Virus record (IMG/VR): IMGVR_UViG_3300021090_000723
Coordinates: 32,001-96,000 of that record
Source: a virus
Reading direction: 5' to 3' (one strand)
Length of the DNA stretch: 64,000 bases
Positions within the stretch are counted from its first letter, which is position 1, and every line of letters begins with the position of its first letter. The notes under the pieces are model-generated. The model was not told the DNA's origin. It searched no databases and saw only the letters and a program-made list of their open reading frames with translations. Positions 16,170 through 51,943 of this stretch are shown piece by piece. The translations under genes and the position numbers were made by a program.

Positions 16170-16199
16170 GGCGGCTTTTCCTCACAGGTTTTGAGGGAA

Positions 16200-16240
16200 G
16201 CCGACGGACGAGCGCCGACGCGAACAATGACAACTTATCA
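16200..16240 (-). promoter_or_regulatory. Repeated late leader element, copy 1 (extended -10 plus GTCGGCG hairpin)
   Basis: TGaTAAGTT then GTCGGCG-ctcgtc-CGTCGGC upstream of the endolysin. Confidence 0.6.
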
Positions 16241-16291
16241 GGCCCATGGGACCGTTGGTAGAGGGCGGCGTGATTCGCACCAGGGATGGCG

Positions 16292-16381
16292 ATGCGCCTG
16301 TACGATTATTGCGTGTGGCTCGTGTTCGGGGGACCGCTTCTTCTCGCGATCCTGGTCGGCCTCATCAAGGTCTTCGCCTAG
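16292..16381 (+). CDS. Small hydrophobic peptide (29 aa), opposite strand to the late genes
   Basis: MRLYDYCVWLVFGGPLLLAILVGLIKVFA; AGGGA RBS; one TM helix. Confidence 0.55.
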   Translation: MRLYDYCVWLVFGGPLLLAILVGLIKVFA

Positions 16382-19300
16382 TCCGCTCCAGATATTCGGC
16401 GTTGAACATGCGGATGATACGTTCTTCCGCCTCGTTCAAGATCCGCACCTGCTCGTTGTAGCGCGGCCTCGCCATCCTGCCCTGCTCCAACGCCATCTTC
16501 GCCTGAGCGCGCGATGCCCTGATCTCGGACAGTTCCGTCCTGGCGTTGTTCGCGTCGTTGTAGAGCGAGAGCATTGCCCGATTCTCCTGGACGAAGCCAC
16601 GAGCCTCAGGTCTCCGGCCCTCGCGCTGGTAGTCCCTGGCATAGGCGCGCGACTGCTCGATCTTGTTGATCCGCTCGTAGAACGTCGCCTTGTCGATCCA
16701 GGGCGGCTTGGATGTGACGACGCGGCGCACGAAGGGGATGTCGTTGAACGTGATCGTGCTGGTCGGGTCGGCAAACTTCATGGGCAGATCGAGGAAGTTG
16801 CGCTCGTAGAACGTGCCTGCGGCGCCCCAGGCCACGCCGAACCCATAGTCCAGCCACTCGGGCGAAATCTCGATCAGTCCGGGCTCGACACCCGTTCCGC
16901 CCGAGGCCGTGCTCAGGAAGTCTGTGACCGCTTTGTAGGCGGGCGAGACCGAATTCCAATAGCGCTGGCTGTTCGGGACCTGTGGGCCGTACTGGGACTG
17001 CTCCGGCGCGATCGGCCGCCCGGCATAGTCCTTGTTCATGAAGAGATCGACGACCGGGTCCATGGTGGTGGGCGCGATCATGTTGAGCAGGTTCTGCGCG
17101 CCGCCAACCGGGTTGAACGAGTCCATGATGGTGATCGCGAGGTTGCCGGCCGACTCCAGCGGGTCCTTGCCACGCATAACCTCGGCGATCGAGCGGCCGA
17201 CGCCGTAGAAGATGTTGTAGCCGTAGGGCAGCGGGATCTTCGCCGCCACTCCGCCCTCGCTCGGCGTCATGACGATCAGGTTCCGGCTCTTATCGAACGG
17301 CGTCACCTTGTCGTAGAGCAGCTGGCCGTCATCGTCCTCATCGCTGACAAAGGCGTTGAGGAAGTCCAGCAGGAAGCCGGTCAGCACCGCGAACGCTGCA
17401 ACCTTGCGCACGCGCGGGGACTTCCAGGCGGTGAGCAACGTCGCGGTGCCTTGGATGCTCGCGTTATAGAACAGGTAGAGGCTGTTCATCAGCGGGCCCC
17501 ACGAGCCGCGGCGGTTGAAGTTCACCGTCAGGTTCTTGGCGAGAGACGCCGCCTTCGCCGGGGTGAAGCCACGCTCGCGCGCGTTCTTGTAGGCCGAGAG
17601 ACGGATGGCGTTTTCCACCCCGATGTTCGTGTTCTCGATGATGCGGCCGAGCGTCTTCATCGCCATGATCGGGTTGAGCTTGGACGTGCCGATCTCCCGC
17701 ATCTGACCGTCCAGGCGCTTCCGTAGCTCGAGCACGTCTTCCATCTGGTTGAAGTAGACGCGCCCGCCGTTCTCGCGGAACTCCTGGGCCCAACGGTCCC
17801 ACTCGGCCTGGTCCTTCGCCATCCACGGCATCAGGGTTTTGCCCGGCTCCGCCTTGAACGCGCTGCGGCTCGATGCCACCAGCGCCTTGCGGTAGTCCTT
17901 CACCGTTCCCTTGGTGATGCCCTTGATGTCGCCGTGCGCCTGGATGTTCGAGAGCGCGGTCTGCGCATCGCGGAAGGCGTTCGTGATGACGAACTCCGGG
18001 TTGAGCGTCGTGTTCACGTGGCTGAGAATCCGGTTGATCGCGCCAAAATTCCGGATCAGCAGGCTGATCTGATCCTGCCCCAGGCCCTTCAGGCCCTGGG
18101 CGAGATCGCGCGCGACCGGGTTGTTGCGGTTGAACGTGATGCGATGCTCTTGCCCGTCGATCTTGGTGGACAACGTGTACGGAGCATCTTCGGCGAGGAT
18201 GCGCCGGACCGGCCAGTATTGGACCTCCTGGCGGGCCTTGATCCACACCGGCCGCATCGCGACCTTGTCGACCTTCCAGAAGTTCTCGTTGGGCGCGGCC
18301 TTCGCCAGTTCGTAGATCGCGTTGCCGATACGATTGTTCTCTCCACGGATGATCGCTTCCTCGGCCTGCATGAACGCATAGGCCAGGATGTCACGCGCTG
18401 GCGACTGACGGCCGAAGGCACGGTGCGATTCCTTGCCCTTGACGTCGAAGCCCTTGCCCGGGCGCGGGCGGTCGGCCTCGACCTCAGGGTCCAGTTCGGC
18501 CACGCCGCGCAGCGGGACATAGTCGCGATAGGTGGCGCGCCAGGCCTCGGCCTGCTCTTCCGACATAAGACCCGCTTCGACGCGCGTGTTCAGCGCGAAG
18601 GCCAGGACGTCGTCGACCATGCCTGCCAGGGCGTCGAAGTCCGCGCGCCGGCCGGTCTTATCGACCTCGTCCATGATGCCGCGCGCATCTTCATCGCTCA
18701 TGCCCGAGCCAGCGATGCCCTCTTCCCGGAACTTCGGGTTGATCTCATTGATCCGCGCGTTGCGTTCCGGCGCGTGCCGGGCATAGAGGAACGTCTCAAG
18801 CTCTTCCCGGCTGATGCCGCGCTCGTGCATGGCGAGCACAAGCGGCCGGATTTGGCGCTCGAACAGATCCTCCAGCTTCGCGCCCTTGCGGCCGGACGAC
18901 AGTTCCTCGGCCAGATAGGCGTTCTCTTCCTCCGTGAGCGGACGACCCAGCATCTGCTCGATCGCCGCCTGCATGCGCGCGACCTTGAGATAGCGGTCCT
19001 GGAAGCCCACGCGCCACTTGTCGAACGACGCATTGATGGCGGAGAGCGAAGCGGCGCCCTTCAGCCGCTCCATCAGGGAGAGGTTCGAGTTGCGGAGATA
19101 GTCCACCACGCTCGGCTGCGGGGAGTCGGTGAACATCGTGAAGGCGTTCGCGCCGGGTGGCATGCGGCGGGCGAACAGGCCCTGGCCCTCCATCACGGAC
19201 TCGCGCATGGCAGGCGTCACGTCGAGCGAGTGCACGTCGATCACGCCCTGCTTCTTCTGTGGGTGGGTCTCGGCCACGGTCCACGACGGCTCCGATTCCT

Positions 19301-22300
19301 TGCCGGTGTCGATCTTGGTGGTCCCGACCTTCGCGTCCCACTTCTTGGCGTACCGGTTCAGGAACTGGGGCACGATCCTGTCGTAGAAGCCCTTCATGCC
19401 CTCGCCGCCGACGGTCAGGTCGAGGCCGGAGATTTCACGCACGCGCACACCAAGTCCGGCTGACCGCCCCTCTACTGGTGTTACAGCCAACAGCTTATCG
19501 GCAAGCTCCGCTCCGACCAGTTCCGCCAAGTCATCGCGCGACTCGATCTGACGATTGATGGCCTCCTCATTGCGCTTCCCGTAGGCAATGAGGTGCCCAC
19601 GTTCGAATGGCCCGTCCATCCGCGGGCGCCCAATCCCGCCGCTGACGTTGTCTGTCAGCCGGAGGCTGTTGACGTGCTTGGCAAGATTGTACCGCTCAGC
19701 CTGCTGCGCACCGGTCGTCCAGGCGAGGCGGTCGTAGCCGTTCTCGGCGGCGTAGCGCAGCATCCGCTTGAGGGCGATCTCGTGCCAGGTCGACTTGAAC
19801 GGCGCGTCCGGGACGCCGGTGCGCTTCTCGATCGCCTCGCCTTCCTTGATCGTCCAATTCGTCGTGTCCATCGGCGCTTGATCGTCACGATTCCACGCCG
19901 GCCGCCGCCCATGCTTATCGCGGATGAATTCCTGCGCCTGGTCCAGCGTCGGTCGAGTGCCTACCAGTTCGCCTTGATCGTCGAAGATTGAAAAGACCGG
20001 CGAACGGGTTTCCTTGACGCTATAGCCCTGGCGTCTGCCCTTCTGATGCCAATCGCTCTGGATCTCCTCGATGAAGAGCACCCTCTTGCCGTCGGCGTCT
20101 GCGCGATCCTTGAAGCGCACATGGGCCAGGATATTCGCCTCATCGAAGTGACCTGAGCGGAACTGGCCGCTGAGCGCATCGATCGCGAGGCTCCTGTCGC
20201 CGGGATACCGGCGCCGCATGACATCGATCCAATGCGCGTCGTTTGGGCCCTCGTATTTTTTCGTGACGCTATTGAGCACGATCGGGTCATCCCAGGTCCC
20301 AACCTTATGGTCGCCGTAGAAGACCGTGACGTCGCCCTGGGTGGTCGACCGACGATTGCGCTCGATGCGGACCTTGGCCGGGTCGAAGGGCACGCCGATC
20401 TGCGGCAGCGTCAGCAGCAGTTCGCGGTAGTTCTCGCCGCCAGGGAGGGTTTGGGACTCAAACTTGGTGGCGCCGCCCTCGGCGACGATCCCGGCATCAC
20501 GATGGATCGCTTCACGCGCTTCGATGAAGTCCCCGAAGTCGCCCAACTCTCGACCAGCCCGGATGGCATTTACGCGAGTAACCACTCCGCGCTGGTCGTA
20601 ATGGAACGTGACGCTAGCATCGTCAGCGTCAAAGGCCATTTCCGAATAATACCGTTGACCCTCAGGTTGGATGGTCCTTTCTTCATCGGGGAGCCAATCC
20701 TCGATATTCTCCGGATAGGGTCCCTCATCGTCGCCAGGCGCGCGGCCCTTCTCGACCTCCTCGATCTGGACGTTGTTCTCGCGGATGAAGTCGAGCAGCG
20801 CCTGCTTCGTGACCGGTCCCTGCTGGGACTCGAGCCATTCGTTCACGCCGGTCCACTCGGTCTCGTCCTTCGTGATGCCGCGCGCGTTCTTGATGAAGGC
20901 CTGCCACTGGATGCCCGACGCCTTCTCCTGCTTGGAGGCCTCGATCGTGCGCGCGAGCGTCGAGAAGAACGGCGCCGGCGGCTGTGGCTTCAGGGCGAAC
21001 TTCGCCTCGGACCTGGTGGGCCCGGCCTTGCCGCGCTTGCCGATCCTGCCGGACTCGATGCGCTTGAAGATGTCCTCTGGCGTCTGGAAGCCGCGGCCGC
21101 GGAAGAAGTTGCGCAGGCCCTCGAAGAAATTGCGCACGCGCTGGAGAACCTTTGTCGCCAGGCCTGCCTTCGCGAATTCGTTGCTAGGCTCATAGTTCTG
21201 CGCCGCGAACGCGATCGTTTCCTCGGTCTGGACGTCGGGCTTGTAGTATTTGCCGACGATATCGAACGTCCGTTTCCACTTGTCTTTTGCGGCCGCTTCG
21301 AGTGTGGCCCACTCTGACTTGGTGAAGAAGCCGAGATTGCGCAGGCCGTGGATGACCTCATGCGTGATGGTGCCGAACGGGTCCTTGGTATCGAGCGCAA
21401 TGGTGATGAGGTTTTTTGTGATGTCGAAGTGGCCGTCGGCCTCGTGGCCCTCAGGGTCCGCAATCGCATCGGCCACGCGCACGGCGAGCGGAAGGTTGCG
21501 ATTGACCAGATAGGCGCGGAGATCGGCGGCCAGCTGCTCGCGCTTCGCCTCGAACTCGGGGCTGAATGTGAAGGTGACGCCGTCGCCGGTCTCGATGACC
21601 GGTGGCGCCTGCGGGAGCCTTAGTCTTTCAAGGCCTCTTCCAACGCCTTCTGGGCGCGCGCCCTCGCCTGCTCCACCTCTGGGCTCGACGGCAAGTCCTT
21701 GGTCCTCGCCAAGAATCTCCGCAATGCCATCGGCGAACTGAGTGGGGGCGGTTCCTCGATCAGATACATTGACGACTCCAATCGCTTTCAGCGGCGAGGC
21801 GATGGCCTCGGCCCCGGCTTGCGCCATCGTATCGAACGTGGCCGCAAGGCTTTCCGGAACAACAACGGATGAACGGTAATCGATGAGGCCGGCGCGCGCT
21901 AGACCCACCGCGAAGTTATGGCTGAAGTTGGCGACGGCGAGGTTGCGATCGAGGCCCCGCTCGCGGATCAGCGAACGGCCGACGCGGCCCTGGGCGTTCT
22001 GCGATTCTTGCAGCATCTTGTTCAGGATGTCGGAGGGGCTGGACCACAGCGTCAGGTCCAGATCGGCGAAGGCCCGGCGCGTCTCGGGGGTGAGACGGGC
22101 GGCGTGCCACTGCCCCTCCGTGGTGTGGGCGATCATCCAGTCCAAGCCAGGGAGATCCAGCAACGTCAGGTCTGCGAAGGACAGGCCGTATGGCATCGTG
22201 TGGTTATGGTGGAACACGATCCGCGCATCTGGCTTGCTGAGCGCATCCTCGATCTTGCCCCGGAGGTTCACATATGTGTCCTTGCCGGAGGTCTCCGCCG

Positions 22301-37125: not shown

Positions 37126-37925
37126 TTGACGATCTCGAGCTTTCCGCTGACGAGACGGATCAGTCCGACATCCATGCGGATGGTCGGCGGATCTAGCGTC
37201 ACGAGTTCGATGGTCTTGTGCCGGGCTACCTGGGCCCAGCGATTGTACAATGAGACCGCCTTGGGCAACTGGCCGCCGATCATCATTTCAGTGCACGCGC
37301 CGACGATGCGGTTGTGGTCCAGGTCTTCCTCGTGCGGCGGCTCCGTGATTCCGATCTTCTTGGCCTGTTCGCGCATTTCCGCATGGGTGCGCGCGCCGAT
37401 CTGCTCCAGCATTTGGTCCTTCTGGACCCAGTCCTGAATGGTGATCGCGTAGAGATCGATGGGCGTGACCTGGCCCATGAAGCGGCTTCCGTCGGGCCGT
37501 GTCAGTTCGAACTTCATGCCCGCCGCGACCGAGAGGGTGCGCGCGGCCTGGTGTCCGTGCGGCACGCGGGTGACGACCTCGCAGGCGTCGGTGTTGCAGA
37601 ACATCCAGCGCAGGACGGCCTTGGCCATCGAGAGCGCCCAGGGCCCGCGCCCCTCAGGCCGCACGAGCGTGTGGACCTCGTAGAGAGCCGGCGTGAGCTT
37701 CAAGAGCATGCACCCGCCGTGCTCGCCCAAGAGCAGCACGTTGCTCTCGTTCCTGACCTGACCGGTGAGATCCAGCACGCCCTCGTCCGGATCGGCGATG
37801 AACGGGCGGATGTCTGGATGGTTGGCGAGCTCGTTCAGGCGCTTCGCCGCAAAGGAGCGCAAGACCTCGACCATGGGCCTTTGGGTCCGCGCGATCGGCG
37901 GCTCTTCCTTGCGCGAGGTCTTCAA
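37119..37925 (-). CDS. GNAT-fold/DUF2824-like virion-associated acetyltransferase
   Basis: YEVHT...P..RG.W......L.W.F motif; start may be ATG 37874. Confidence 0.65.
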   Translation of the reverse strand: MKTSRKEEPPIARTQRPMVEVLRSFAAKRLNELANHPDIRPFIADPDEGVLDLTGQVRNESNVLLLGEHGGCMLLKLTPALYEVHTLVRPEGRGPWALSMAKAVLRWMFCNTDACEVVTRVPHGHQAARTLSVAAGMKFELTRPDGSRFMGQVTPIDLYAITIQDWVQKDQMLEQIGARTHAEMREQAKKIGITEPPHEEDLDHNRIVGACTEMMIGGQLPKAVSLYNRWAQVARHKTIELVTLDPPTIRMDVGLIRLVSGKLEIVKC

Positions 37926-38096
37926 CGTGTCCTCCGGGCGCCGAGCGCGCCAGGCGTGGGCGGCGCGAGCTTGCGCTTCATGCGCGACTGAGAAAGGGCG
38001 CCGACCGCCGAGGGGGCGCTCATCCTCGGCATCCTCGGGCGCGGCCGCTTCACGCCAGCGCGGATCGCTGACGGCTTCTTCTTGCGGGTGCCCATG
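37922..38096 (-). CDS. Small Arg/Lys-rich protein (start MGTRKKK)
   Basis: Stop overlaps next start; weak RBS. Confidence 0.45.
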
Positions 38097-38176
38097 CTGA
38101 GGGGGGAGACGACGGACGGAAAGTCGGAACTGCGCATGCGGCTCTCACCCAAGATGGTGCGGCGGTTAGACCAACC

Positions 38177-38215
38177 GCCAGCGGGAGAGCACGCCGACGC
38201 AGAACGCGGAGCATA
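38177..38215 (-). promoter_or_regulatory. Repeated late leader element, copy 2
   Basis: TATGCT then GTCGGCG-tgctctcc-CGCTGGC. Confidence 0.5.
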
Positions 38216-41108: not shown

Positions 41109-41429
41109 TCACCCGAGGGTGCAGATCGTGAATCGACCGCGCTTCGAGAACAGCTGCTTGGTCGCGTCCGTGTACCGCAGCTGGACGTGCCAGTTACCGG
41201 CTTGATCGAGTTGTCCGATGGTGAAGGTGTAGGTCACATACTCGTTGGGGAGGAACGTGCCGACCTCCGTCACGATTTCGAGCGCGCCCAGTTCCACGGC
41301 GGGGTTGGTCACCACCAGCGTGGTGTTGTCCGGCTTGGTGAAGGTGAGTTCGAGCCCGGTGAAGGCTGACATATCGTAGCCGACACCGAAGCGGATCTGG
41401 ACGCCGAAACTACCAACGAAAATGGTCAT
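41109..41429 (-). CDS. Small beta-sandwich virion protein (BppU-like)
   Basis: L.FTKPD.T, Y.F..G.LDQAG.W..Q motif; GAGGGG RBS. Confidence 0.6.
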   Translation of the reverse strand: MTIFVGSFGVQIRFGVGYDMSAFTGLELTFTKPDNTTLVVTNPAVELGALEIVTEVGTFLPNEYVTYTFTIGQLDQAGNWHVQLRYTDATKQLFSKRGRFTICTLG

Positions 41430-41449
41430 GCTGGCTTAGCCCCTCTGTG

Positions 41450-41500
41450 GACCAGCCAGCGGACAAGCGCCGACCCTGCTTCGCGACTTGTAGCATATCA
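41450..41500 (-). promoter_or_regulatory. Repeated late leader element, copy 3
   Basis: TGaTATGCT then GGGTCGGCG-cttgtc-CGCTGGCTGGTC. Confidence 0.65.
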
Positions 41501-41692: not shown

Positions 41693-41693
41693 G

Positions 41694-42622: not shown

Positions 42623-42644
42623 CGCTTACCCCTATCAGTCGGAA

Positions 42645-42672
42645 GGGCGGGAGCGCTTCTGCTCTCCCGCCC
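42645..42672. terminator. Intergenic GC hairpin
   Basis: GGGCGGGAG/CTCCCGCCC 9-bp stem, no U-tract. Confidence 0.35.
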
Positions 42673-42701
42673 CCCGGTAACTTGACGATCAGCGCGAAGG
42701 C

Positions 42702-43169
42702 TTACTCTTCGTGCATCATCGTGCAGGTGGCCGTGCCGGTGTAACCGGCCGAGAGCGCGCGGAAGGCCACGCCGTTCTCGTCCACGGCCGGGATGATGAG
42801 TTCGGAGCCCGGGTTCGCGACCCAGCGATACGAGGCCCGCTGGTTGACGCCGATGAAGAACAGCGACGACGCGGCGGTGATGGTGCCTTCGGCGGTGTAG
42901 TTCGCCTCCGCGATCGAGCCCGCAGCACGGTTGCCCGGATCGATCAGGACGGGGAGGACCGCAGTCGCGGTGCCGGCGGCCGTCTGCCTGGAGATATCGT
43001 ATTCCAGGAAGTTGTCGGCAGGCGTCCCGTTCGTGCCGAAGAGCACGTCATAGACCTTGGCGTTCGTGAGGGTGGCGGTCTCGGCCGTCAGCGAGAGCAG
43101 CGTCTTGAAGGTGCCCGAAATGGCCTGCTGCACGCCACCGAGGTCATTGTTTGAGGAATAGCGCGCCAT
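42702..43169 (-). CDS. Putative virion structural protein
   Basis: GGGAG RBS; Thr/Ala/Gly-rich beta protein. Confidence 0.65.
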   Translation of the reverse strand: MARYSSNNDLGGVQQAISGTFKTLLSLTAETATLTNAKVYDVLFGTNGTPADNFLEYDISRQTAAGTATAVLPVLIDPGNRAAGSIAEANYTAEGTITAASSLFFIGVNQRASYRWVANPGSELIIPAVDENGVAFRALSAGYTGTATCTMMHEE

Positions 43170-43201
43170 AAAATATCTCCCTGGCTTGGCTCAGATTGCG
43201 A

Positions 43202-43256
43202 GACCAGCCAGCGGACAGGCGCCGACCCTGTGGTGATGCTTCGCGGAAGATAGCAC
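43202..43256 (-). promoter_or_regulatory. Repeated late leader element, copy 4
   Basis: TGcTATCTT then GGGTCGGCG-cctgtc-CGCTGGCTGGTC. Confidence 0.65.
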
Positions 43257-43270
43257 CGCGCCCGGTGCGA

Positions 43271-44107: not shown

Positions 44108-45091
44108 CTACTGGATATCAACGAACCCGGCCCCTGCGCCGCCACCGTAGAGACCGCCGCCGCCGCCCAAGCCATCGAAGGCAAGGGGGAGACCGCCGCC
44201 ACCACCACCACCACCACCACCCGGGCCAGCCCATTCAAGTGTCTCGCTGTCCTGCCAGGTCTGGCCATCGCCGCCGTGGCCGCCGTCGACCTCGCCAACA
44301 GGTGCTTCGACCGCCGGGCTCCCGCCGCGTCCGCCGCCACCGAGCGTTCCGTTCGGGGCATCAGGACTGAGCGTTCCACCGCCGACACCTTCGCTGTTAT
44401 TGCCGCCATCGCCGGCTAAAGCATACTGGCCGGTGAGAAGAGTGGCATCGATCTGGCCATCGCCGCGGAAACTAGGCCAGCCGACGCCGTCGGGGTCCAC
44501 GATCGCGCCCCCACCGCCGCCTTGGGCCCTGCCTAAGTTGACGGGGTTAGCCTGGATCGCAAATCCGGCACATCCGGAATCGAGGGGGTTGGGGCTGTCG
44601 ACAAACTTGCGTGTTCCGCCCGCAGCGCCACCCGACAATTCCTGGTTCTCACCACCCCAGCTTACGCGCCCATCATTTGGGAGCGGCGCATGGAAGGTTT
44701 TGCCGCCACCTGTGTCTGGGCACGGCACAGGCACGGTGGTCGGGTTGAAGCCGATCCCCCAGCCGACATAGCCTGGAGGGGCAAGGATCATGAGGGCACC
44801 GTCAGCGTCCTCCATCCAGGTCTCGGCCACCGCCAAATCGGCCACGTCCTGGTCGTAGGGTTGCCCGATCTGCAAATTGACCAACGCACCCGCCTGGAGA
44901 TTGAAGCCCGCTGCGTCAGCGCCCGTGATGCCGATATAGGCTCCGCCAAAGCCGCCGTGGCCGTTATCGACACCGTTGCCGTCCAGGCCGTTCCCACCCG
45001 CGCTGATCGCGTGGATGGCGACCAGGGAACTGAAATCGGATGGGATCTCGAATTCAGTACCAGCGGTGATGATGAGTATCTTCTGGGCCAC
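44108..45091 (-). CDS. Glycine-rich tail fibre-like domain inserted in the nozzle gene
   Basis: GTG after AGAAGGA; P.D.......HAI.AGG.G and poly-Gly, paralogous to 53554..54432. Confidence 0.6.
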   Translation of the reverse strand: MAQKILIITAGTEFEIPSDFSSLVAIHAISAGGNGLDGNGVDNGHGGFGGAYIGITGADAAGFNLQAGALVNLQIGQPYDQDVADLAVAETWMEDADGALMILAPPGYVGWGIGFNPTTVPVPCPDTGGGKTFHAPLPNDGRVSWGGENQELSGGAAGGTRKFVDSPNPLDSGCAGFAIQANPVNLGRAQGGGGGAIVDPDGVGWPSFRGDGQIDATLLTGQYALAGDGGNNSEGVGGGTLSPDAPNGTLGGGGRGGSPAVEAPVGEVDGGHGGDGQTWQDSETLEWAGPGGGGGGGGGGLPLAFDGLGGGGGLYGGGAGAGFVDIQ

Positions 45092-45108
45092 AGCAAGATG
45101 ATCCTTCT

Positions 45109-46284
45109 TTATGGCGTGGGCGGAGCCATGTTCTCGACGCCGGTCATGATCGGGAAGCGGAAACCTTGGGCAAAATGTCCCGCCGAGCGACCGCCCTCGG
45201 GCAGCACCGTGTCGTACCAGCACTTCTCGCGGATGTTGTAGATGGCTGCGTGGCTCGGCTCGGTCGCGCCGAAAAGCGGTGCGCAGAACCAAATCTCGCC
45301 GTAGCGCGGGACCTTGAACGCGAACGATTTGCCCGCGTAGCTCGGGTTCAAGTTGTCGAAGAACCAGTCGGCGTTGAAGCTGTTCGGGATCTCCACCACC
45401 GTCCCGTTGAACATCAGGAAGCGATCGACGCCCGCCCAATAGTAGAGCCCGTCGTTCTCGATGACGGTGGCACCTGCCAGGATCGAGGACGACGGCGAGG
45501 CGGTGTTGAATCGGAACCACTCGGGCGGGCCGGTGAAGTTCGCGGACACGACCTCTGACAGCGACCAGAAGAGCGCAGCCGGCGAATTGGCGCCGCCGCC
45601 GCGCAGCGGCATGCCCGCCACGAACTTCTGGGCGGAGACGCGCGCGATGCCTGCGCCGATCGTGCCTCCCGAGATTCCAAGCGTGGTCGGGATGTTGGGC
45701 GCTGACCAGCCAATGCGACCGTCGCTGTCGAACGAGAACAGGAACGGCTGGACGCACACGATTCCGCCCGCGACCTGGGGCTTGGTGTAGTTGCCGCCGA
45801 AGGTGCTGGACGGGTTGCCAAGCTGCTTCAGCGGCTCGGTATCGTCCATGAGCCCGATGAAGGGCGGCGTGCGGACGTTGGTAGGAACCACGCCCACGTT
45901 CGGCGTGGAGTGCGCGATGATCTGCACGGCCTCGCTCGTGGTGTCGAAGAGTGCGTCGATGGTCCAGCCTGGCTCGATGCCGCCGATGAAGTTCGCTGGC
46001 GTGCGGTCCACGCGGCTGATGAAATTGCCTTCTAAGTCGAAGACGACCTTGTCGATGCCGTGGCTGTGCCCGATATGCCCAAAGACCTCGCGGCCCTGGT
46101 AGAACATATGGATGCGGCGGCCGATGCCCCCGATCCCGTCCGTGATGGTCCGGTAGCCGCCCATCTTGCGCGGCCGCCCGTTGCGCCAGCGCGTCCACTG
46201 GGCATCGACCGAGCACTTGGAGTCCACGCGCGTCCCATCGCGTTGCACTCCGGGCTGGAAATCAAGCGGGTATGGTCGGCTCAT
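45109..46284 (-). CDS. N-terminal part of tail tube/nozzle (P22 gp10-like stabilization) protein
   Basis: PGVQRDGT, W.RW..GRPRKMGG, YW.GVDRF..FNG.V, KVPRYGEIWF, IYN.RE..WYD. Confidence 0.72.
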   Translation of the reverse strand: MSRPYPLDFQPGVQRDGTRVDSKCSVDAQWTRWRNGRPRKMGGYRTITDGIGGIGRRIHMFYQGREVFGHIGHSHGIDKVVFDLEGNFISRVDRTPANFIGGIEPGWTIDALFDTTSEAVQIIAHSTPNVGVVPTNVRTPPFIGLMDDTEPLKQLGNPSSTFGGNYTKPQVAGGIVCVQPFLFSFDSDGRIGWSAPNIPTTLGISGGTIGAGIARVSAQKFVAGMPLRGGGANSPAALFWSLSEVVSANFTGPPEWFRFNTASPSSSILAGATVIENDGLYYWAGVDRFLMFNGTVVEIPNSFNADWFFDNLNPSYAGKSFAFKVPRYGEIWFCAPLFGATEPSHAAIYNIREKCWYDTVLPEGGRSAGHFAQGFRFPIMTGVENMAPPTP

Positions 46285-48824
46285 AGGTTGTCCGTCCAGC
46301 CGTAGCACATCAGTGCGTTGTTCGCGCCTTGCGATGCCCAGTAGAGGTCGCCCGATTCGAGCATGAACGTGACTGTGTCGGTGACCGTGTTGGACGAACC
46401 CGGGCTCGCCAGGTCGATCTGCGGAGCGCCCAGTGGGTTGGAGAACGCGCCGCCATAGGTGCTGTTCGGCGCGACGATCACAAGCCCGTTGGTCCCGGTG
46501 GCCTGGGCAACAACGGTGACCTCACTCGCGGTCGGAGGCGCGAAGTTGGACGTCGACACCGGTATCCAGTTCGGGATGGAGATCGAGCCCGCATCGCCGG
46601 TCGCCATGGCTTGCAGCGCTTCGGTGTACCGCCCCTGTCGGCCGTATTGCAGGGTGCGCCGGAATTGAGCAGATCCGTTTGTCCGCACCGCGCCGACGCG
46701 GCCGAAGAACGTGTAGCCGGCGGGAAGTGTGGGCGTGGAGAAGTTGGTCGAGATCAGGCCCGCCGTCGTGGTCCCGTCCGAGATCACGTAGACCGCGTAC
46801 CAGGTGTTGTTGCCGAGCGAGCCAGCGTCCAGACCATTGGGCACGCCCACGGCGAGCCCGTTGATGGTGACCGCGACGTTCGTCCGGATCAGCACCGGGC
46901 TTCCGCTCACCGGGGCAACGCCCACCGATTCCGCGCTGACATCGATCTGGGATGCGGGCGTGCCGGAGTTGTTCGCGACCCGCAGGCGTGTGAACGAGCT
47001 CCGCGCGCCGCCGCCACCACCGGTCGAGCCAGCGAAGGCCGGATTCATAAATTCCCAGCGGGTGTTGGCGAAGTCGTAGCGCAGGATCGCCTCGTACCCA
47101 GCAGCGGCAATGTCGCCCACCACAAGCGGCTGGCCGCCCAGCTTCACGATGGGATTCGCGGTGAGCGCGTTCGGCTGGAACGTCGGGGCGACGACGGTGT
47201 TGGCGCCGATTGCTCGGAAGCTCAGGAGCAGGCCATCGGTCAGAGCCGCGATGGCGGGGCTGTAGGCGCCGCTGATGACGTCTGGTGTGCCGCCCGCGAT
47301 GACCCAAGGGATGCCGCCGCCAGCGCCGCCGCCTGACGCCGGATTCATAAGCTCCCAGCGGGTGTTGGCCAGGTTGTAGCGCAGGATCGCTTCGAAGCCA
47401 GCGCCCGAGATATCGCCCGCTGCGAGCGCGATGCCGCCCAGCTTGGTGATGACTTGCGCGCCCAGCACATTGGGATTGAACGTGGGCGTGGCCGTGACGT
47501 TCGCTGAGATCGCCCGGAAATACAGCAGCAGGCCGTCCACCAGCGCGGCAACAGGCGGGTCGTAGGTCGCCGTGATGGCATCCGGCGTGCCGCCCGCGAC
47601 TACCCAAACGCCTGCGGAATTGTCGAGAAAGAAGGTCCACCAGGTGCCGTTCGGCGATGCGCCATCGGTCACGATCAGCGCGGACGCACCTTGCTTGATG
47701 ACCAGCGGCGCGGCGAGCGCCCCGGTGTTGATCTGGTCAGCAGCCGGCGGCTGAATCGTCACATCGCCGCCCTGGGCGAGCACACCGATGAAGTAGTCGG
47801 CGCCGACCGTTCCGGCCTCGGGCAGGTTGATGGTCAGCGCGGCCGTGGCGACATACATCGTGCCGGCGTTGGTATCGTCGAGGGTCTGGTCCGTCGCGAC
47901 CGTGCTTTCAACCAGCAGGCTTTGCTGGATGCCGAGCAGCGTCAGGACCGCGGCGGCCGACGGTGCGGTGAAGATCGCAATGCCGATGGCCGTTCCGCCG
48001 AAGTTCGTCAGCGCGCCCAGCGCCGTGGTGGCGCCGGTGCCACCGGCCGAGATCGGGACCGGGATGGGCTGCGCGCCGAAGACGTGGAAGCCCGTCGATG
48101 AGGCGACGATGATCGCGGTGTAGCGCAGATCCGTGGTCGCGGGCGGGAGCGTGAACGACGGCAGGCCCTGGTTGATCGTGTCAGCGCCGGAGGCGTCGAT
48201 GGTCAGAACGCCGTCGGATTCGTTGGTGACCATCGCCCACCAGCCGGGCTTGAGCGTGCTCGAGGTCCCATCCCCGATAGCTGAAAGCTGGAAGGTGTGA
48301 TCGTTCGGACCAGTGAGCACCGCGGCGTTGGCGCGGTGCGTCTCGGTCAGCGTCAGGTCCTCGTCAGCTGCGAAGACGGTGGCGATCTTGGACCGGAGCA
48401 GCGTGAGGTTCGCTTCGAGCCCCGCGCCAGCGAGCGCGCCGGCTTGCGCGTCCGACGTCATGGCGCCCAGCTGCACCACGCGCCACAGGCCCGCCTGCGT
48501 CGTGTTGTCGGTCAGCAGGATGACCCAGGCGGTGCCCGGATCGACCATCGTGATCTGCGCGCCGGAGTTGTCCTGAAGCTCGAAGGAGTCCGTGCCGATG
48601 TTCGCGATGATGAGCGAGATACCGGTTGCGGCCTGGCGCGCATCGGGCATGCGGATGAAGTCGCAGTCCGTCGAGTCCACGTCGATCCAGTCGGCCACAT
48701 AGGGCACGCCGGACTGGCTCTCGGTCGGCCAGACCAGCGTCACATCGCCCGTCGGCTCGATGAGTTCGTACTCGGGGAAGGCTGAACGCTGGGCAAGTCC
48801 CGAGAAGAGGTTCTGCCAACTCAT
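46281..48824 (-). CDS. Tail fibre/spike protein
   Basis: 847 aa, Ala/Gly/Thr-rich; GGTGATT motif; internal 100-aa duplication. Confidence 0.8.
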   Translation of the reverse strand: MSWQNLFSGLAQRSAFPEYELIEPTGDVTLVWPTESQSGVPYVADWIDVDSTDCDFIRMPDARQAATGISLIIANIGTDSFELQDNSGAQITMVDPGTAWVILLTDNTTQAGLWRVVQLGAMTSDAQAGALAGAGLEANLTLLRSKIATVFAADEDLTLTETHRANAAVLTGPNDHTFQLSAIGDGTSSTLKPGWWAMVTNESDGVLTIDASGADTINQGLPSFTLPPATTDLRYTAIIVASSTGFHVFGAQPIPVPISAGGTGATTALGALTNFGGTAIGIAIFTAPSAAAVLTLLGIQQSLLVESTVATDQTLDDTNAGTMYVATAALTINLPEAGTVGADYFIGVLAQGGDVTIQPPAADQINTGALAAPLVIKQGASALIVTDGASPNGTWWTFFLDNSAGVWVVAGGTPDAITATYDPPVAALVDGLLLYFRAISANVTATPTFNPNVLGAQVITKLGGIALAAGDISGAGFEAILRYNLANTRWELMNPASGGGAGGGIPWVIAGGTPDVISGAYSPAIAALTDGLLLSFRAIGANTVVAPTFQPNALTANPIVKLGGQPLVVGDIAAAGYEAILRYDFANTRWEFMNPAFAGSTGGGGGARSSFTRLRVANNSGTPASQIDVSAESVGVAPVSGSPVLIRTNVAVTINGLAVGVPNGLDAGSLGNNTWYAVYVISDGTTTAGLISTNFSTPTLPAGYTFFGRVGAVRTNGSAQFRRTLQYGRQGRYTEALQAMATGDAGSISIPNWIPVSTSNFAPPTASEVTVVAQATGTNGLVIVAPNSTYGGAFSNPLGAPQIDLASPGSSNTVTDTVTFMLESGDLYWASQGANNALMCYGWTDNL
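47037..47610. repeat. Tandem domain duplication in tail fibre (300-nt period)
   Basis: GGATTCATAA..TCCCAGCGGGTGTTGGC at 47041 and 47341; WV.AGGTPD...ANTRWE.MNPA twice. Confidence 0.85.
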
Positions 48825-49480
48825 GGCTTGGTCCTTTCAACCGCGCGATCGAGGATGCGCTGGAGATCCTGGCCGTTCAGAAGCCCAAGGGCCTCGTTGA
48901 ACTTCTTCTCCCAGACCGGGATTCGCTCATCGTTCTTGAGGTACGGGGCGGCTTCGAGCAGCGCCCCATAGAGCAGCGCGTTGGGGGTGTAGATCGCGTA
49001 GAAGTTCGTTTCGTTCTGTTCGTCCAGCAGCTGCGGCTGCATGTAGAAGACGCCGAGCATCGGATAGGTCGCCTGGGGCGTCGGCACGATCAGGTAGTGC
49101 TGATAGTCGTAGTCCGCGTAGAACTCCGGCACGCCGACCGCCGTCTGGTCGGGCCAATACATCTGGCAATACTCCAGCGAGCGCGGGAAAAGCGGGTTGA
49201 GCGTGTTGGCGCCCGTGCCCGTGCCGAACTTCAGCGAGACCGTCTGCCGCCACCGGTCGGGCTTGGTGATGATCGCCTGATTTATGACCAGGCCGGACAG
49301 GTCGCGCAGCACTTCGATCTGGCCGAGCAGCTTCAGCCGGTCGGAAATGTTGCGCTCGCTCGCGTTGATGAGACGCGGGATCTGGGCAAAGACCTCAGGG
49401 TCCGACGTGGCCGAGCCGCCGCGCTCCAGATACGTCTTCATGTCCGTCCGCAGACTGTTGAATGTGGTCGTTTCAGGCAT
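48821..49480 (-). CDS. Head-tail adaptor protein
   Basis: IP.LI..SER.I...LK, G.P.FYADY, PTP...Y, LLYG.L.EA.PYLKNDERI.VW. Confidence 0.75.
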   Translation of the reverse strand: MPETTTFNSLRTDMKTYLERGGSATSDPEVFAQIPRLINASERNISDRLKLLGQIEVLRDLSGLVINQAIITKPDRWRQTVSLKFGTGTGANTLNPLFPRSLEYCQMYWPDQTAVGVPEFYADYDYQHYLIVPTPQATYPMLGVFYMQPQLLDEQNETNFYAIYTPNALLYGALLEAAPYLKNDERIPVWEKKFNEALGLLNGQDLQRILDRAVERTKP

Positions 49481-49487
49481 GGCTCAC

Positions 49488-49676
49488 CTACTTCAGCGCG
49501 ATCGAGTCTTGGCTCGATCCGCCGATGGTCATCAGCTTGAGCGGCGGCGGCCGCTCGGGACGCGCCTCGAACTGCGCAAAGACGGCGGTGGGCAGCTGAC
49601 GCCGCCTGAACAGGTGCGGCGGGTTCATCGTGCCGAACGGGCCTGCGGCGACGGCGTCTTCCGGGGGTGTGGCCAT
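49488..49676 (-). CDS. Hypothetical protein (start MATPPE)
   Basis: TGATG-coupled. Confidence 0.5.
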   Translation of the reverse strand: MATPPEDAVAAGPFGTMNPPHLFRRRQLPTAVFAQFEARPERPPPLKLMTIGGSSQDSIALK

Positions 49677-50182
49677 CAGGGCTCTCCAGCGGTGAAGTAG
49701 ACGCCGGTCGCGCGCGGCCACTCGGGCGGGTCGTCTCCGCTCCACCCGTCCTCGAGGACCACGATCCACGGCTGGGGCAACGTCGTGTTCTCCGAGTTCG
49801 GGTCCTGCGGCACGATGGTGTCGCCCTTCCGGTAGAAGGTGCGCGGTTGCCACACGCGCGCGGGGCGCAGCTGCGTGATCGGCGCGCCACCCACGGCCGA
49901 GACGTTGTTAACGATCGGGTTCAGCTGGTTCGTGCCGTAGAGGGGCGTCGGGCCCAGGTCGGCGATCCCCACGTCCGGGCGCGGATGGTCGAGGCTGATG
50001 TCCTCGGTCTGGCGCGCCGGCAGACGCCACGGGTCGAACTGATCCTTGTCGTCCTTGCAGACGAACAGGCCCGGGATGTTCGGGTCCTCTTCGAGTTCGT
50101 CGTAGGGGAATTTTTGCGAGCAGCGGCCGCAGATCGCGATTGCAATCTTGGTGCGTCCCCTTGTGTCGATAAATTTCGGCAT
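49676..50182 (-). CDS. Virion morphogenesis protein with CxxC
   Basis: AIC.RC..KFPY..L..DPN.PGL.VC...D.FDP...I.L..PRPD; C-terminal W.P.T.Y..GD module. Confidence 0.7.
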   Translation of the reverse strand: MPKFIDTRGRTKIAIAICGRCSQKFPYDELEEDPNIPGLFVCKDDKDQFDPWRLPARQTEDISLDHPRPDVGIADLGPTPLYGTNQLNPIVNNVSAVGGAPITQLRPARVWQPRTFYRKGDTIVPQDPNSENTTLPQPWIVVLEDGWSGDDPPEWPRATGVYFTAGEP

Positions 50183-50185
50183 CGC

Positions 50186-51304
50186 TCACCTCGTGTAAGG
50201 CGAGATATCCGGCGTGATCCGGATCGGCGCCTTCGTGCGCTCTTCCGACCAAGCCAGCATCCGGGCTTCCTTGGCCCGGCGTTCGCACAGGTCCAGGCGC
50301 TGCTTGCGCTCCGCGAGCCTCAGCTGGGTCAGTTCGGGCGGATCGGCGAGCAGGATGTTGGCCGGGATCTCGGACATGATCTTCTCGGCCAAGGTCCACT
50401 GGACGCACTCGATCCAGCGCCGCGGGATTTCCAGATCGTCCCGTAAAGTGCCTGGGTCCTGGATGTAGCGCCGGGTCAGGGCGGTGACCGTGCCCGCGTA
50501 GAAGGCCGAATTGTCCGGCACACCCCAGATTTTCAGGATCGGGCCATCGATGCCGTCGGTGATCTGGCGGTCCACATAGGCCACGACCGGCCGGTTGGAC
50601 TGCTGGGCCTTGTTCGGCAGGGTGAAGTAGTCATCGATGTTCTCGACGCCGAGCGGGGTATCGATGCCGTTCGCCAGGCCGAACTGCATGTGGTTGATCG
50701 CGATCGTGCCGATGCCGGTGTAGTTCACCCGCACGTACTGGGCCTGGGTGGAGGGATCGAGGTCGAAATACGCCCAATGCCCCGGGGTGAAGGTGGTTTC
50801 CGGAAGCAGCTGGCTGGTCGTCCAGGTGACCCCGTCCTCCGAGGTCTGGACCTGGAAGGCTGTCACCACGTCGACCGAGCCGCCCAGCAGGATACCGATG
50901 GTGTTCAGTATGCTGACCGTCGTGAAGTCGACCGAGACAAAGCTGGTGTTAACGTCGGGCCCATCCTCCGCTGCGAAGAGCGTCGAGTTCGGCCCGCCCG
51001 AGACGGTGCACACCCCACGGTACGGGTTGAAGGACCGCCAATAGGACTGGAGCACGTCCACGACGCCGCGCGGGAAGATGACATTGGGCGACCCGGGCGT
51101 GATGCCGAGCAGCAGGTATTGCCGCGTCCAAAGCGGGAAGCCTGCGTTGATGAGGTCGGTGCACAGCGAATAGAGCAGATCCAGGGCGATCGTCATGCCC
51201 TCGCTGGTGATCTTCTGGACCTCATAGCCCGCGCGCATGAAGGCGTGATCCATGATCTTGCGGATCGGATACGGGTGCGCGCTGACCGTGCCGGAGGTGG
51301 CCAT
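50186..51304 (-). CDS. Head-tail connector protein with inserted discoidin-like domain (start MATSGT)
   Basis: MATSGT, N.G..LW, DY..LPNK....RP, IQD.G.....IP.RW, EER...PI...P.ISPYT. Confidence 0.72.
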   Translation of the reverse strand: MATSGTVSAHPYPIRKIMDHAFMRAGYEVQKITSEGMTIALDLLYSLCTDLINAGFPLWTRQYLLLGITPGSPNVIFPRGVVDVLQSYWRSFNPYRGVCTVSGGPNSTLFAAEDGPDVNTSFVSVDFTTVSILNTIGILLGGSVDVVTAFQVQTSEDGVTWTTSQLLPETTFTPGHWAYFDLDPSTQAQYVRVNYTGIGTIAINHMQFGLANGIDTPLGVENIDDYFTLPNKAQQSNRPVVAYVDRQITDGIDGPILKIWGVPDNSAFYAGTVTALTRRYIQDPGTLRDDLEIPRRWIECVQWTLAEKIMSEIPANILLADPPELTQLRLAERKQRLDLCERRAKEARMLAWSEERTKAPIRITPDISPYTR

Positions 51305-51308
51305 CAGG

Positions 51309-51881
51309 TCACCATTTGCAGGACGGCTTGTCGACCGAGCCACCGTGCGAGAAGCGCTTCGGCAGCGCCTCGGCGGGCGTGGACGGCGGACGGCGGCCCT
51401 GCTCGCGGGCCTTCTCGCCGATCGCGCGCGCCTTCTGCCCCTCGGCCTCGAACTGATCGAGCCGCCGGTGGTGGCGCTCGGGCTGGGTCTGGACGCCACG
51501 GCGCCGGCCCTTCGGGTTCAGCACGCCTTTGCCTGGCGACGGCATTTCGTCCCAGGTCTCGTAGAAGTTGTCGATGTCCTCGGTGCGTTCGCGCGCGCTT
51601 TGCGGACCAGGCCGCACGGCTGCATCGCCGCGCGCCGAGATCATGTTCATCCGCTCTTGCGCCTCTTCGCGCAGATCGTCCTCGGTGCGGCTGACCGAGC
51701 CGCCCTTGGCCAGGTGCTGAAGCTTCTTCGTGCGCTCAGGGAGCCGCGACACCTTCTGGCCGTGCGATTCCTTCACGAACTTCTTGGCGACTTTCGGGCT
51801 GATCTTCAGGCGCTCGGCGACCTCGGGGTCAGCCGCGGCGGCGTGCATAAAGCGGTTTTGTGCCTTGGAGCGCATGGGCAT
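51309..51881 (-). CDS. Small basic virion-associated protein with xxGGxV motifs
   Basis: AGGAG RBS; MP..SKAQ.RFM.AAA.DP..A....I...VAK.F; AKGGSV, SHGGSV. Confidence 0.7.
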   Translation of the reverse strand: MPMRSKAQNRFMHAAAADPEVAERLKISPKVAKKFVKESHGQKVSRLPERTKKLQHLAKGGSVSRTEDDLREEAQERMNMISARGDAAVRPGPQSARERTEDIDNFYETWDEMPSPGKGVLNPKGRRRGVQTQPERHHRRLDQFEAEGQKARAIGEKAREQGRRPPSTPAEALPKRFSHGGSVDKPSCKW

Positions 51882-51900
51882 TGGCTGATCTCCTGATTGC

Positions 51901-51943
51901 GACCAGCCAGCGGGCAACGCGCCGACCCAGACTCACTGTAACA
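51901..51943 (-). promoter_or_regulatory. Repeated late leader element, copy 5
   Basis: TGtTACAGT then GGGTCGGCG-cgttgcc-CGCTGGCTGGTC. Confidence 0.65.

What the first reader, a model, noticed from the sequence alone, without database searches (positions are those of the whole stretch)
16170..51943. Five-copy promoter + hairpin leader element with an alternative RBS-proximal stem
Seen on the - strand in five intergenic gaps (cores at 16200-16219, 38177-38198, 41455-41474, 43207-43226, 51906-51926). Each has a TAnnnT -10 (four of five TG-extended), followed 8-20 nt later by GTCGGCG-(6-8 nt)-CG(C/T)(T/C)GGC, a 7-bp G-U-rich stem. In four copies the 3' arm can pair instead with a downstream AGCC(A) next to the RBS/start: GCTGGCT/AGCCAGC at 41.4 kb, TGGCTGGTC/GATCAGCCA at 51.9 kb, GGCTT/AAGCC before the endolysin, and CTGGCT/AGCCAG at 43.2 kb. 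Inference: an undescribed cis-regulatory switch timing late and lysis genes, such as a translational operator, antiterminator loading site or sRNA target.
Basis: partly seen in the sequence, partly recalled or inferred. Interest (0 to 1): 0.7.

Follow-up and report, generated by a model that had tools for sequence, protein, structure and literature searches.

The report
Repeated promoter-leader module locking ribosome sites

Summary
Three near-identical copies (41.47, 43.22, 51.92 kb; GGGTCGGCGC-N4-5-CCGCTGGCTGGTC, minus strand) and two diverged ones (16.2, 38.2 kb) lie in intergenic gaps. Each sits 8-20 nt after a TAnnnT -10, TG-extended in four.

TGNTANNNT occurs only 15 times on that strand of the genome, and four of those precede the motif.

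At equilibrium its 3' arm pairs with the AGCCAG/RBS region (H2, 12-15 bp).

The cost of opening the RBS ranks 1, 2, 4 and 8 of 56 genes. Shuffling the leader removes the effect (P 0.007-0.07). 44 distant homologues of one downstream gene show no such lock. Forcing H1 returns access to genome-typical values.

Two relatives keep the motif invariant while its flanks diverge. More than 130 others lack it. Rfam has nothing like it.

Best reading (about 0.4): a host-type promoter plus a default-off leader that is opened through the conserved 5' block by an unknown sequence-specific factor.

Main rival: the motif is a late promoter inside the hairpin, as in T4 gene e, possibly for an EcfG-like sigma that I found outside the window. 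Its consensus does not fit the motif.

The scan has noted RBS-sequestering phage leaders before on other DNA, but not this sequence.

The parts
16232..16240 (-). W1 extended -10 (TGATAAGTT)
16200..16219 (-). W1 hairpin H1: GTCGGCG / CGTCGGC, loop CTCGTC. Diverged copy, 15.1 bits
16172..16203 (-). W1 RBS lock: CGGCUU+CCUCA pairs with UGAGG+AAGCCG and contains the SD GAGGAAAA. TTG start at 16169
15624..16169 (-). Gene after W1: CHAP / tail-lysozyme-like, 181 aa
38210..38215 (-). W2 -10-like TATGCT (no TG), directly after the last tRNA of the array
38177..38198 (-). W2 hairpin H1: GTCGGCG / CGCTGGC with an 8-nt loop. Weak copy, 11.3 bits
38141..38190 (-). W2 RBS lock: GCUCUCCC pairs with GGGUGAGAGC around the inner hairpin GGCGGUUG/UAACCGCC. 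ATG at 38137
37922..38137 (-). Gene after W2: 71-aa very basic ORF. It heads the block that contains the head-morphogenesis-like gene and the 5766-aa giant gene
41492..41500 (-). W3 extended -10 (TGATATGCT)
41450..41476 (-). W3 canonical motif: block A GGGTCGGCGC, loop, block B CCGCTGGCTGGTC. H1 = 41474-41455
41430..41460 (-). W3 H2: 12 bp, with the SD GAGGGG in its loop and 3' arm; the stem ends at the ATG (41429)
41109..41429 (-). Gene after W3: 106 aa, unknown
43247..43255 (-). W4 extended -10 (TGCTATCTT), overlapping a terminator-like hairpin GCACCG-GGCG-CGGTGC
43202..43228 (-). W4 canonical motif. H1 = 43226-43207
43181..43211 (-). W4 H2 (12 bp). The SD/AUG (ATG 43169) pair further out with the H1 loop and block A
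42702..43169 (-). Gene after W4: 155-aa all-beta jelly-roll-like protein with 421 homologues
51935..51943 (-). W5 extended -10 (TGTTACAGT), 4 nt after the upstream gene's stop codon
51901..51928 (-). W5 canonical motif with a 7-nt loop. H1 = 51926-51906
51882..51909 (-). W5 H2: UGGCUGGUC / GAUCAGCCA covers the SD AGGAG. ATG at 51881
51309..51881 (-). Gene after W5: 190-aa virion-structural-like protein

Best explanation
Each element is a host sigma-70-type promoter that relies on an extended -10, followed by a transcribed 5' leader.

Shown by computation: in the finished leader the conserved block B (CCGCUGGCUGGUC, or its diverged equivalent) pairs with the segment that holds or abuts the Shine-Dalgarno sequence and start codon (H2). 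The first gene of each unit is therefore translationally off by default.

The invariant 5' core GUCGGCG can pair with the first seven bases of block B (H1). H1 is the best fold of the nascent RNA. It is mutually exclusive with H2, and when enforced it returns ribosome-site access to genome-typical values.

Inferred: H1 costs 3.5-14 kcal/mol relative to the equilibrium ensemble, and both blocks are sequence-invariant across paralogues and lineages. Opening therefore probably needs a sequence-specific trans-acting factor, most simply a late phage RNA-binding protein that stabilises the H1 side. This would work like Mu Com on mom mRNA. The result would be coordinated timing of virion and lysis gene translation. 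The factor itself is unidentified.
For: Promoter: four of the 15 minus-strand TGNTANNNT sites precede the motif. Between orthologues the -10 changes only at degenerate positions: TGTTACAGT/TGTTAGAGT and TGATATGCT/TGATATGTT. No -35/-10 consensus promoter occurs in 41.0-52.1 kb.

Structure: H2 is the minimum-free-energy fold in all copies. Its complementarity has P of about 0.03 in each of the three canonical copies. W1 carries a U-A to C-G compensatory change in H2, read. The canonical copies fold 4-7 kcal/mol better on the sense strand.

RBS lock: opening energies are 13-16 kcal/mol against a genome median of 8.6, ranking 1, 2, 4 and 8 of 56; W2 gives 18.3. Shuffling the leader gives P 0.007, 0.073, 0.013, 0.007 and 0.020. 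44 distant homologues give uniform P values. Enforcing H1 lowers the opening energy to 4-10 kcal/mol. H1 is the nascent fold.

Sequence-specific constraint: the motif is invariant in G001 and in both L154 copies while the flanks diverge. In W1 and W2 the two H1 arms are the parts that stay conserved, while loops and flanks differ.
Against: There is no strict covariation for H1, because the arms are invariant or change on one side only. The chance of a 7-bp complement between two conserved blocks is roughly 0.03-0.05 (my estimate).

The equilibrium probability of H1 is <= 0.03.

In the L154 orthologue of W4 the motif and H2 lie 136 nt from the start codon. The RBS there is locked by a separate local hairpin, and enforcing H1 lowers the opening energy only from 16.8 to 12.2. 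The motif therefore keeps a fixed distance to the promoter, not to the RBS.

No Com-family protein is encoded, and no candidate factor was identified.

All energies are nearest-neighbour predictions. No transcript ends are known.
Confidence: 0.4

Rival explanations
1. T4 gene e-type device. The motif itself is a late promoter, for the phage's ECF sigma or another modified RNA polymerase. Long transcripts from upstream contain block B and are translationally silent. Transcripts that start just after GGTC lack the 5' strand of H2 and are translated.
For: The phage encodes an ECF sigma at genome 29319-29789. It is present in the motif-bearing relative G001 and absent from five distant complete relatives. 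The motif has promoter-like geometry: two conserved blocks, a variable centre and a one-base length variation. It can be read as GGGTC-N19-20-GTC, compared with the published GGAAC-N17-20-GTT (PMC6599016). The motif-to-ATG distances of 19, 20 and 32 nt are typical for such promoters. T4 gene e, soc, 49 and I-TevI work this way (PMC3014915).
Against: The sigma is EcfG-like: its bacterial homologues follow nepR-like genes. Its region 2 and region 4.2 residues are invariant with those homologues, so it should read GGAAC...CGTT. The motif lacks the AA of the -35 element, and its spacing is 1-2 nt long. W1 has no GTC at the right distance. The conserved extended -10 upstream has no role in this model. 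Far more of the 'spacer' is invariant than a promoter needs. In M4 such a transcript would still carry the local RBS lock.
Confidence: 0.17
2. A static 5' structure without a switch. The long irregular hairpin formed by the motif and its 3' partner protects promoter-proximal mRNA ends from decay, or is an RNase III/E processing site. It incidentally sets a fixed low translation rate.
For: The hairpin starts 0-13 nt from the predicted transcript start. H2 is kept even in M4, where it does not touch the RBS. A different lineage (L073) has its own repeated paired hairpins before genes.
Against: A stabiliser or RNase site needs shape, not 23 invariant bases across paralogues and lineages. It does not explain why the unpaired block A is the most conserved part.
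Confidence: 0.15
3. A DNA operator. A phage DNA-binding protein binds the motif just downstream of the promoter and blocks, or times, transcription of late units. This would resemble promoter-proximal operators or mycobacteriophage stoperators.
For: The distance to the -10 is constrained to 8-20 nt in all eight copies, whereas the distance to the start codon is not. The motif has one orientation, strict sequence invariance and a bipartite form. Several HTH proteins are encoded, for example the 470-aa IclR-HTH protein.
Against: It does not explain the conserved complementarity of downstream RNA to block B. It does not explain the G-U pairs, which exist only in the sense RNA. At the DNA level the repeat is a poor palindrome (5 of 7).
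Confidence: 0.13
4. A promoter-proximal antitermination RNA, put- or nut-like, that modifies RNA polymerase for read-through of long late operons.
For: The element lies directly after promoters of long units (8.6 kb after W5; more than 20 kb after W2). A terminator-like hairpin follows the 155-aa gene.
Against: No U-tract terminators were detected in 41-52 kb on the minus strand apart from one inside a gene. There is no similarity to known put/nut RNAs. The model does not explain the RBS locks.
Confidence: 0.07

Closest known systems
Bacteriophage Mu com-mom translational activation (Com hairpin plus translation inhibition structure)
   Same: The start signals are buried in a stem. An adjacent upstream hairpin, when bound by a small phage protein, shifts the fold and exposes them (PMC6483171). 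This is the same logic as H1 versus H2.
   Different: Mu has one site, here there are five. No Com-family zinc ribbon is encoded, there is no sequence similarity, and no binding protein is known.
T4 gene e / soc / 49 / I-TevI leaders (RBS-sequestering hairpin with a late promoter in its 5' strand)
   Same: Late and lysis genes whose RBS is locked by an upstream strand lying immediately before the RBS (PMC3014915). W1 also precedes a lysozyme-like gene.
   Different: No recognisable late promoter lies inside the 5' strand. Instead a conserved host-type -10 lies upstream of the whole structure, so the locked RNA is the promoter's own product. The 5' strand is a shared invariant motif.
Start-associated and extended start-associated sequences (SAS/ESAS) of Cluster K mycobacteriophages
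   Same: Lineage-specific, single-orientation repeats placed before many genes. Some have imperfect inverted repeats with a variable spacer. A role in translation is proposed and the factor is unknown (PMC3203893).
   Different: SAS is the RBS itself, 3-7 bp from the start, in non-structural genes and in dozens of copies. Here the conserved block is the anti-RBS strand plus a 5' block. It is tied to a promoter and has 3-5 copies before virion and lysis genes.
MS2 maturation-gene leader (delayed folding, kinetic trap); from my own knowledge, not checked in a paper here
   Same: A 5' hairpin that forms first delays a more stable long-range pairing that closes the RBS.
   Different: That case is an RNA phage with a single gene, and no trans factor is needed. 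Here refolding by strand displacement would probably be fast.
EcfG-dependent promoters of Alphaproteobacteria (GGAAC-N16-17-CGTT)
   Same: Bipartite, with similar overall length and distance to start codons.
   Different: The -35 AA is missing, the spacing is 1-2 nt longer, and the central part is invariant.

Membership tests
Any Rfam 15 family | Score at or near a family's gathering threshold | tested here: not met
   Only tRNAs pass in the whole window. Permissive scans of the three canonical loci give only 13-20-bit chance hairpin hits.
Mu Com/mom-type translational activation | RBS and start codon sequestered in a stem (translation inhibition structure) | tested here: met
   By prediction only: opening energy is 13-18 kcal/mol against a median of 8.6, and the effect depends on the leader.
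Mu Com/mom-type translational activation | Adjacent upstream hairpin whose occupation opens the inhibitory stem | tested here: inconclusive
   H1 exists, is exclusive with H2, and lowers the opening energy when enforced. There is no covariation, and M4 is uncoupled.
Mu Com/mom-type translational activation | Com-family zinc-ribbon activator encoded by the phage | tested here: not met
   PF10122 finds nothing in the six-frame genome.
T4 gene e-type promoter-in-hairpin | RBS-sequestering hairpin on long transcripts | tested here: met
   (prediction).
T4 gene e-type promoter-in-hairpin | Late promoter within the DNA that encodes the 5' strand | tested here: inconclusive
   The motif is bipartite and the phage has an ECF sigma. 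The motif does not fit the EcfG consensus, and the sigma's recognition regions are conserved.
EcfG (ECF15) promoter | GGAAC-N16-17-CGTT upstream of a gene | tested here: not met
   One match in the genome, on the plus strand inside a CDS, against 2.8 expected. The motif reads GGGTC-N19-20-GTC.
Single-subunit phage RNA polymerase promoter (T7 type) | Phage encodes a T7-like RNA polymerase | tested here: inconclusive
   The PF00940 genome search found nothing, but its controls were silent too. No RNA_pol domain occurs in the 30 largest ORFs scanned. The 5766-aa ORF was not scanned.
Intrinsic terminator / attenuator | G+C-rich stem followed directly by a U tract | tested here: not met
   The scanner found no site at any of the elements in 41.0-52.1 kb. 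H1 and H2 are followed by GGUC and AUG respectively.
SAS/ESAS (Cluster K mycobacteriophages) | 13-bp repeat containing the SD, 3-7 bp from the start codon | tested here: not met
   The conserved blocks end 19-136 nt before the start codon and do not contain the SD.

The most novel reading that the evidence does not exclude
The motif is the receiver of a small phage 'translational regulon'. A so far unrecognised, sequence-specific RNA-binding protein of this phage clade binds the GUCGGCG hairpin in five leaders and unlocks virion and lysis genes together. That would be a multi-target version of the single-target Com/mom principle, built on host-type promoters instead of a late sigma.
Probability: 0.25. 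Interest if true: 0.6.

Novelty: new variant of a known kind. Interest (0 to 1): 0.42.

Why it matters
Late-gene timing in most uncultured phages is assumed to be transcriptional. Here five late units carry what look like constitutive host-type promoters and ribosome sites that are among the most tightly locked in the genome. All are tied to one invariant RNA/DNA word. If a factor opens them, this would be a compact, portable translational timer for phage structural and lysis genes, and a defined RNA-protein pair to look for. If not, it is a clean natural example of promoter-leader cassettes spreading within a genome. Either way the element gives usable markers (promoters, leaders, unit boundaries) for annotating this soil-phage clade.

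Tried and rejected
- Exact-pattern scan of IMG/VR for the motif: 66 hits, 65 of them chance matches inside coding DNA. Only G001 is a relative.
- megablast of 11 kb against GenBank phages: no match. tblastn with the 155-aa protein: one remote hit.
The contexts of the closest homologues P0002 (83% identity) and P0003 (79%) could therefore not be fetched. This is the main limit on covariation analysis.
- Relatives from IMG/VR and metagenomes (160 loci): the motif occurs only in L154.
- Covariance model against five alphaproteobacterial genomes: only 19-24-bit noise.
- Antisense RNA reading: the canonical copies fold worse on the plus strand.
- sRNA target: no complementary locus was found beyond a 12/13 match inside a CDS.
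- sigma-54, leaderless-mRNA and tRNA-like/RNase P readings were considered by eye. They were dropped because spacing or sequence did not fit.
- Leader peptides: short ORFs cross the motif in W3 and W4 but in different frames, so no conserved peptide is encoded.
- A relay model for M4, in which the freed GAGGCAA pairs with the anti-SD UUGCCUC, is not favoured thermodynamically.
- MAFFT misaligned W2, so pair counts for H1 were read by eye rather than with the count of structure pairs.
- Fold search for the 155-aa protein gave only weak jelly-roll matches.


Full report
CONTEXT. The window is bases 32001-96000 of a 104,903-bp IMG/VR virus record. The record has 64.6% G+C and a terminal repeat of about 190 bp. 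It carries 29 tRNA genes and a 5766-aa ORF. Almost all genes between 14 kb and 64 kb of the window lie on the minus strand.

The genes that follow the five sites are these:
- W1: a CHAP / tail-lysozyme-like protein.
- W2: a 71-aa very basic ORF, followed by a head-morphogenesis-like gene and the giant gene.
- W3: a 106-aa protein of unknown function.
- W4: a 155-aa protein with 421 homologues. Its confident model (pLDDT 91) is an all-beta sandwich with only weak jelly-roll matches.
- W5: a 190-aa virion-structural-like protein.

OBSERVATION. Three copies share GGGTCGGCGC, 4-5 variable bases, then CCGCTGGCTGGTC: W3 at 41476-41450, W4 at 43228-43202 and W5 at 51928-51901. Neither block combination occurs anywhere else in the whole genome.

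A covariance model built from these three copies and three orthologues scores the six training sequences at 46.6-50.8 bits. W1 scores 15.1 bits (E 0.056), which is third among the non-training hits. W2 scores 11.3 bits (E 0.86), which is within noise. By sequence alone, then, this is a three-copy motif with one probable and one doubtful diverged copy.

All five, however, have a TAnnnT element 8-20 nt upstream, and four of these are TG-extended. TGNTANNNT occurs only 23 times in the genome and 15 times on the minus strand. Nine of those 15 lie in crude non-coding DNA, and four of the 15 are these sites. My estimate of the chance of that co-occurrence is below 1e-7. A consensus scan finds no -35/-10 promoter in 41.0-52.1 kb. 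Extended -10 promoters are therefore the only candidates there.

RELATIVES. Two relatives carry the motif.
- An IMG/VR fragment about 80% identical (G001) covers only the W5 locus. It keeps the motif, H2 and the start region identical.
- A soil metagenome contig (L154), whose 155-aa protein is 73% identical, carries orthologues of W4 and W3.

In both, the 23 conserved motif positions are unchanged apart from one G-to-A in M3, while the sequence between the -10 and the motif diverges strongly. The -10 elements change only at their degenerate positions.

About 160 further loci encoding homologues of the 155-aa protein lack the motif. A pattern scan of IMG/VR gave only chance hits in coding DNA. 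Five alphaproteobacterial genomes gave only noise. Rfam gave nothing.

One distant lineage (L073) has its own, unrelated, repeated paired-hairpin element directly before the SD of four genes, including the 155-aa homologue. Repeated structured leaders may therefore be a habit of this phage group.

STRUCTURE. H1 (GUCGGCG/CGCUGGC) is worth about -9.6 kcal/mol. It is the best fold of the nascent RNA up to block B in every copy. In the complete leader it is never in the minimum-free-energy or centroid structure, and its pair probability is <= 0.03.

Instead, block B pairs with the downstream AGCCAG(C) region to form H2 (12-15 bp). This holds in all canonical copies and orthologues. In W3, W5, M3 and G5 the SD lies in the loop or 3' arm of H2, and the stem ends at the AUG. 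In W4 the SD and AUG pair one layer further out, with the H1 loop and block A. W1 and W2 have equivalent locks made of different sequence.

The statistical and comparative support for H2 is as follows:
- Block B complementarity to the downstream segment has P 0.027, 0.027 and 0.034 against dinucleotide shuffles in the three canonical copies. My Fisher combination gives about 0.002.
- W1 shows one two-sided compensatory change in H2 (U-A in W4 becomes C-G), read.
- M3 changes a G-U pair to A-U.
- On the antisense strand the canonical copies fold 4-7 kcal/mol worse, as expected from the G-U pairs.

H1 itself shows only one-sided changes, so it has no covariation support.

RIBOSOME-SITE LOCK. For 56 genes with a recognisable SD I computed the ensemble cost of opening positions -14 to +3 in a -70/+30 context. 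W4, W1, W3 and W5 rank 1, 2, 4 and 8, with 13.3-15.9 kcal/mol against a median of 8.6 and an sd of 3.1. The chance of four picks all landing in the top eight is 1.9e-4. W2 gives 18.3.

Shuffling only the leader (-70 to -15) removes the effect: P = 0.007, 0.073, 0.013, 0.007 and 0.020, and about 1e-5 combined. As a control, the homologous gene in 44 distant phages has a median opening cost of 6.2 and uniform P values. The lock therefore belongs to the motif-bearing clade.

Enforcing H1 lowers the cost to 4.1-9.9 kcal/mol. Removing the RNA up to block B lowers it to 2.9-10.7. The H1 state costs 3.5-14 kcal/mol.

A SIGMA FACTOR OUTSIDE THE WINDOW. A six-frame search found Sigma70_r2 and r4_2 domains at genome 29319-29789 on the minus strand. 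G001 has a 73% identical orthologue. Five distant complete relatives have none. Bacterial homologues (42-50% identity, mostly Hyphomicrobiales) sit directly after a small gene that ends in a NepR-like peptide. I take this, from established knowledge of the nepR-ecfG operon, to mark them as EcfG-type.

The published target of such sigmas is GGAAC-N16-17-CGTT, written GGAAC-N17-20-GTT in PMC6599016. The phage has a single match, inside a CDS on the other strand, against 2.8 expected. The motif reads GGGTC-N19-20-GTC at best. The sigma's region 2 and region 4.2 residues are invariant with its bacterial homologues, so a changed specificity is not expected. This lowers the reading that the motif is the sigma's late promoter, but does not remove it.

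COMPLICATION. In L154 the W4 orthologue (M4) has about 100 extra bases between H2 and the start codon. Its RBS is still strongly locked (17.9 kcal/mol, P < 0.007), but by a separate local hairpin. Enforcing H1 helps only partly, from 16.8 to 12.2. Across all eight copies the motif keeps its distance to the -10 (8-20 nt) but not to the start codon. The motif-plus-H2 module therefore has a value of its own, linked to the promoter or to the 5' end, and RBS locking is an associated theme rather than its only readout.

MECHANISM.
Shown by computation:
- a conserved extended -10;
- a conserved bipartite motif directly downstream;
- mutually exclusive H1 and H2, with H2 dominant;
- exceptional, leader-dependent RBS occlusion.

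Inferred:
- transcripts start at these -10 elements;
- translation of the first gene is off by default;
- a sequence-specific factor acting on the invariant blocks opens it.

I put this at 0.4. The rivals are a T4 gene e-type internal promoter (0.17), a static stabiliser or processing hairpin (0.15), a DNA operator (0.13) and an antitermination RNA (0.07).

COMPARISON WITH KNOWN SYSTEMS. It works most like Mu com/mom (PMC6483171) and shares the RBS-locking principle of T4 e, soc, 49 and I-TevI (PMC3014915). As a multi-copy lineage-specific repeat before genes it recalls the SAS/ESAS elements of Cluster K mycobacteriophages (PMC3203893). It is a member of none of these. No Com protein is encoded. 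No late promoter is recognisable in the 5' strand. The conserved word is not the SD.

Earlier notes of this scan describe many RBS-sequestering phage leaders on other DNA. None shares this sequence.

VERDICT. The element is real and was described accurately. Three canonical and two diverged copies form a phage-clade-specific promoter-leader module that locks ribosome sites. It is a new variant of a known kind of control. Its opening mechanism is unresolved, and only eight sequences are available.

Noticed in passing
outside the window: G000:C1:29319-29789 (-) = L233:9319-9789: The phage encodes an EcfG-like ECF sigma factor, 42-50% identical to alphaproteobacterial general-stress sigmas. Its DNA-recognition regions are invariant with those homologues. 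It has no adjacent nepR or phyR, and no GGAAC-N16-17-CGTT site occurs in phage intergenic DNA. It may act on host general-stress promoters. No paper in the library pairs 'EcfG' with 'phage-encoded sigma'.
   Followed up: partly
L073:4672-4790, 7264-7342, 9914-9950, 17214-17300: A distant relative (IMGVR_UViG_3300043159_000017) has its own repeated element, CGTAGGGCGCATTAGCGG..., forming paired hairpins closed by GTAGGGCGC/GCGCCCTAC. In four places it lies directly before an SD and start codon.
   Followed up: partly
window 44108-46308 (-): Two long ORFs in different frames (44108-46216 and 45109-46308) overlap by about 1.1 kb. This could be a frameshift, programmed or an error, in a tail gene of about 730 aa.
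   Followed up: no
window 42640-42675 (-): A strong G+C-rich hairpin (GGGCGGGAGAGC-AGAA-GCGCTCCCGCCC) with a short U tail lies directly after the 155-aa gene. It is a likely attenuating terminator inside the W4 unit.
   Followed up: no
outside the window: L232:1675-4323 (-): The large terminase ORF (882 aa) carries a LAGLIDADG homing-endonuclease/intein-like insert.
   Followed up: no
outside the window: genome 27376-27316 (-): Another extended -10 (TGGTAGCAT) is followed by a 9-bp hairpin (CUCCGUCGG...CCGACGGAG) and an SD. It is conserved in G001. The architecture is the same but the sequence differs, and the RBS lock is ordinary (10.1 kcal/mol).
   Followed up: partly
L077, L085, L088, L163, L166 upstream of the 155-aa homologue: Tandem GATCCCTGATCCC-type repeats fill the leader of the homologous gene in another lineage.
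   Followed up: no
window 8907-10937 (+): A NAPRTase/NAMPT-like NAD-salvage gene lies in the plus-strand block.
   Followed up: no
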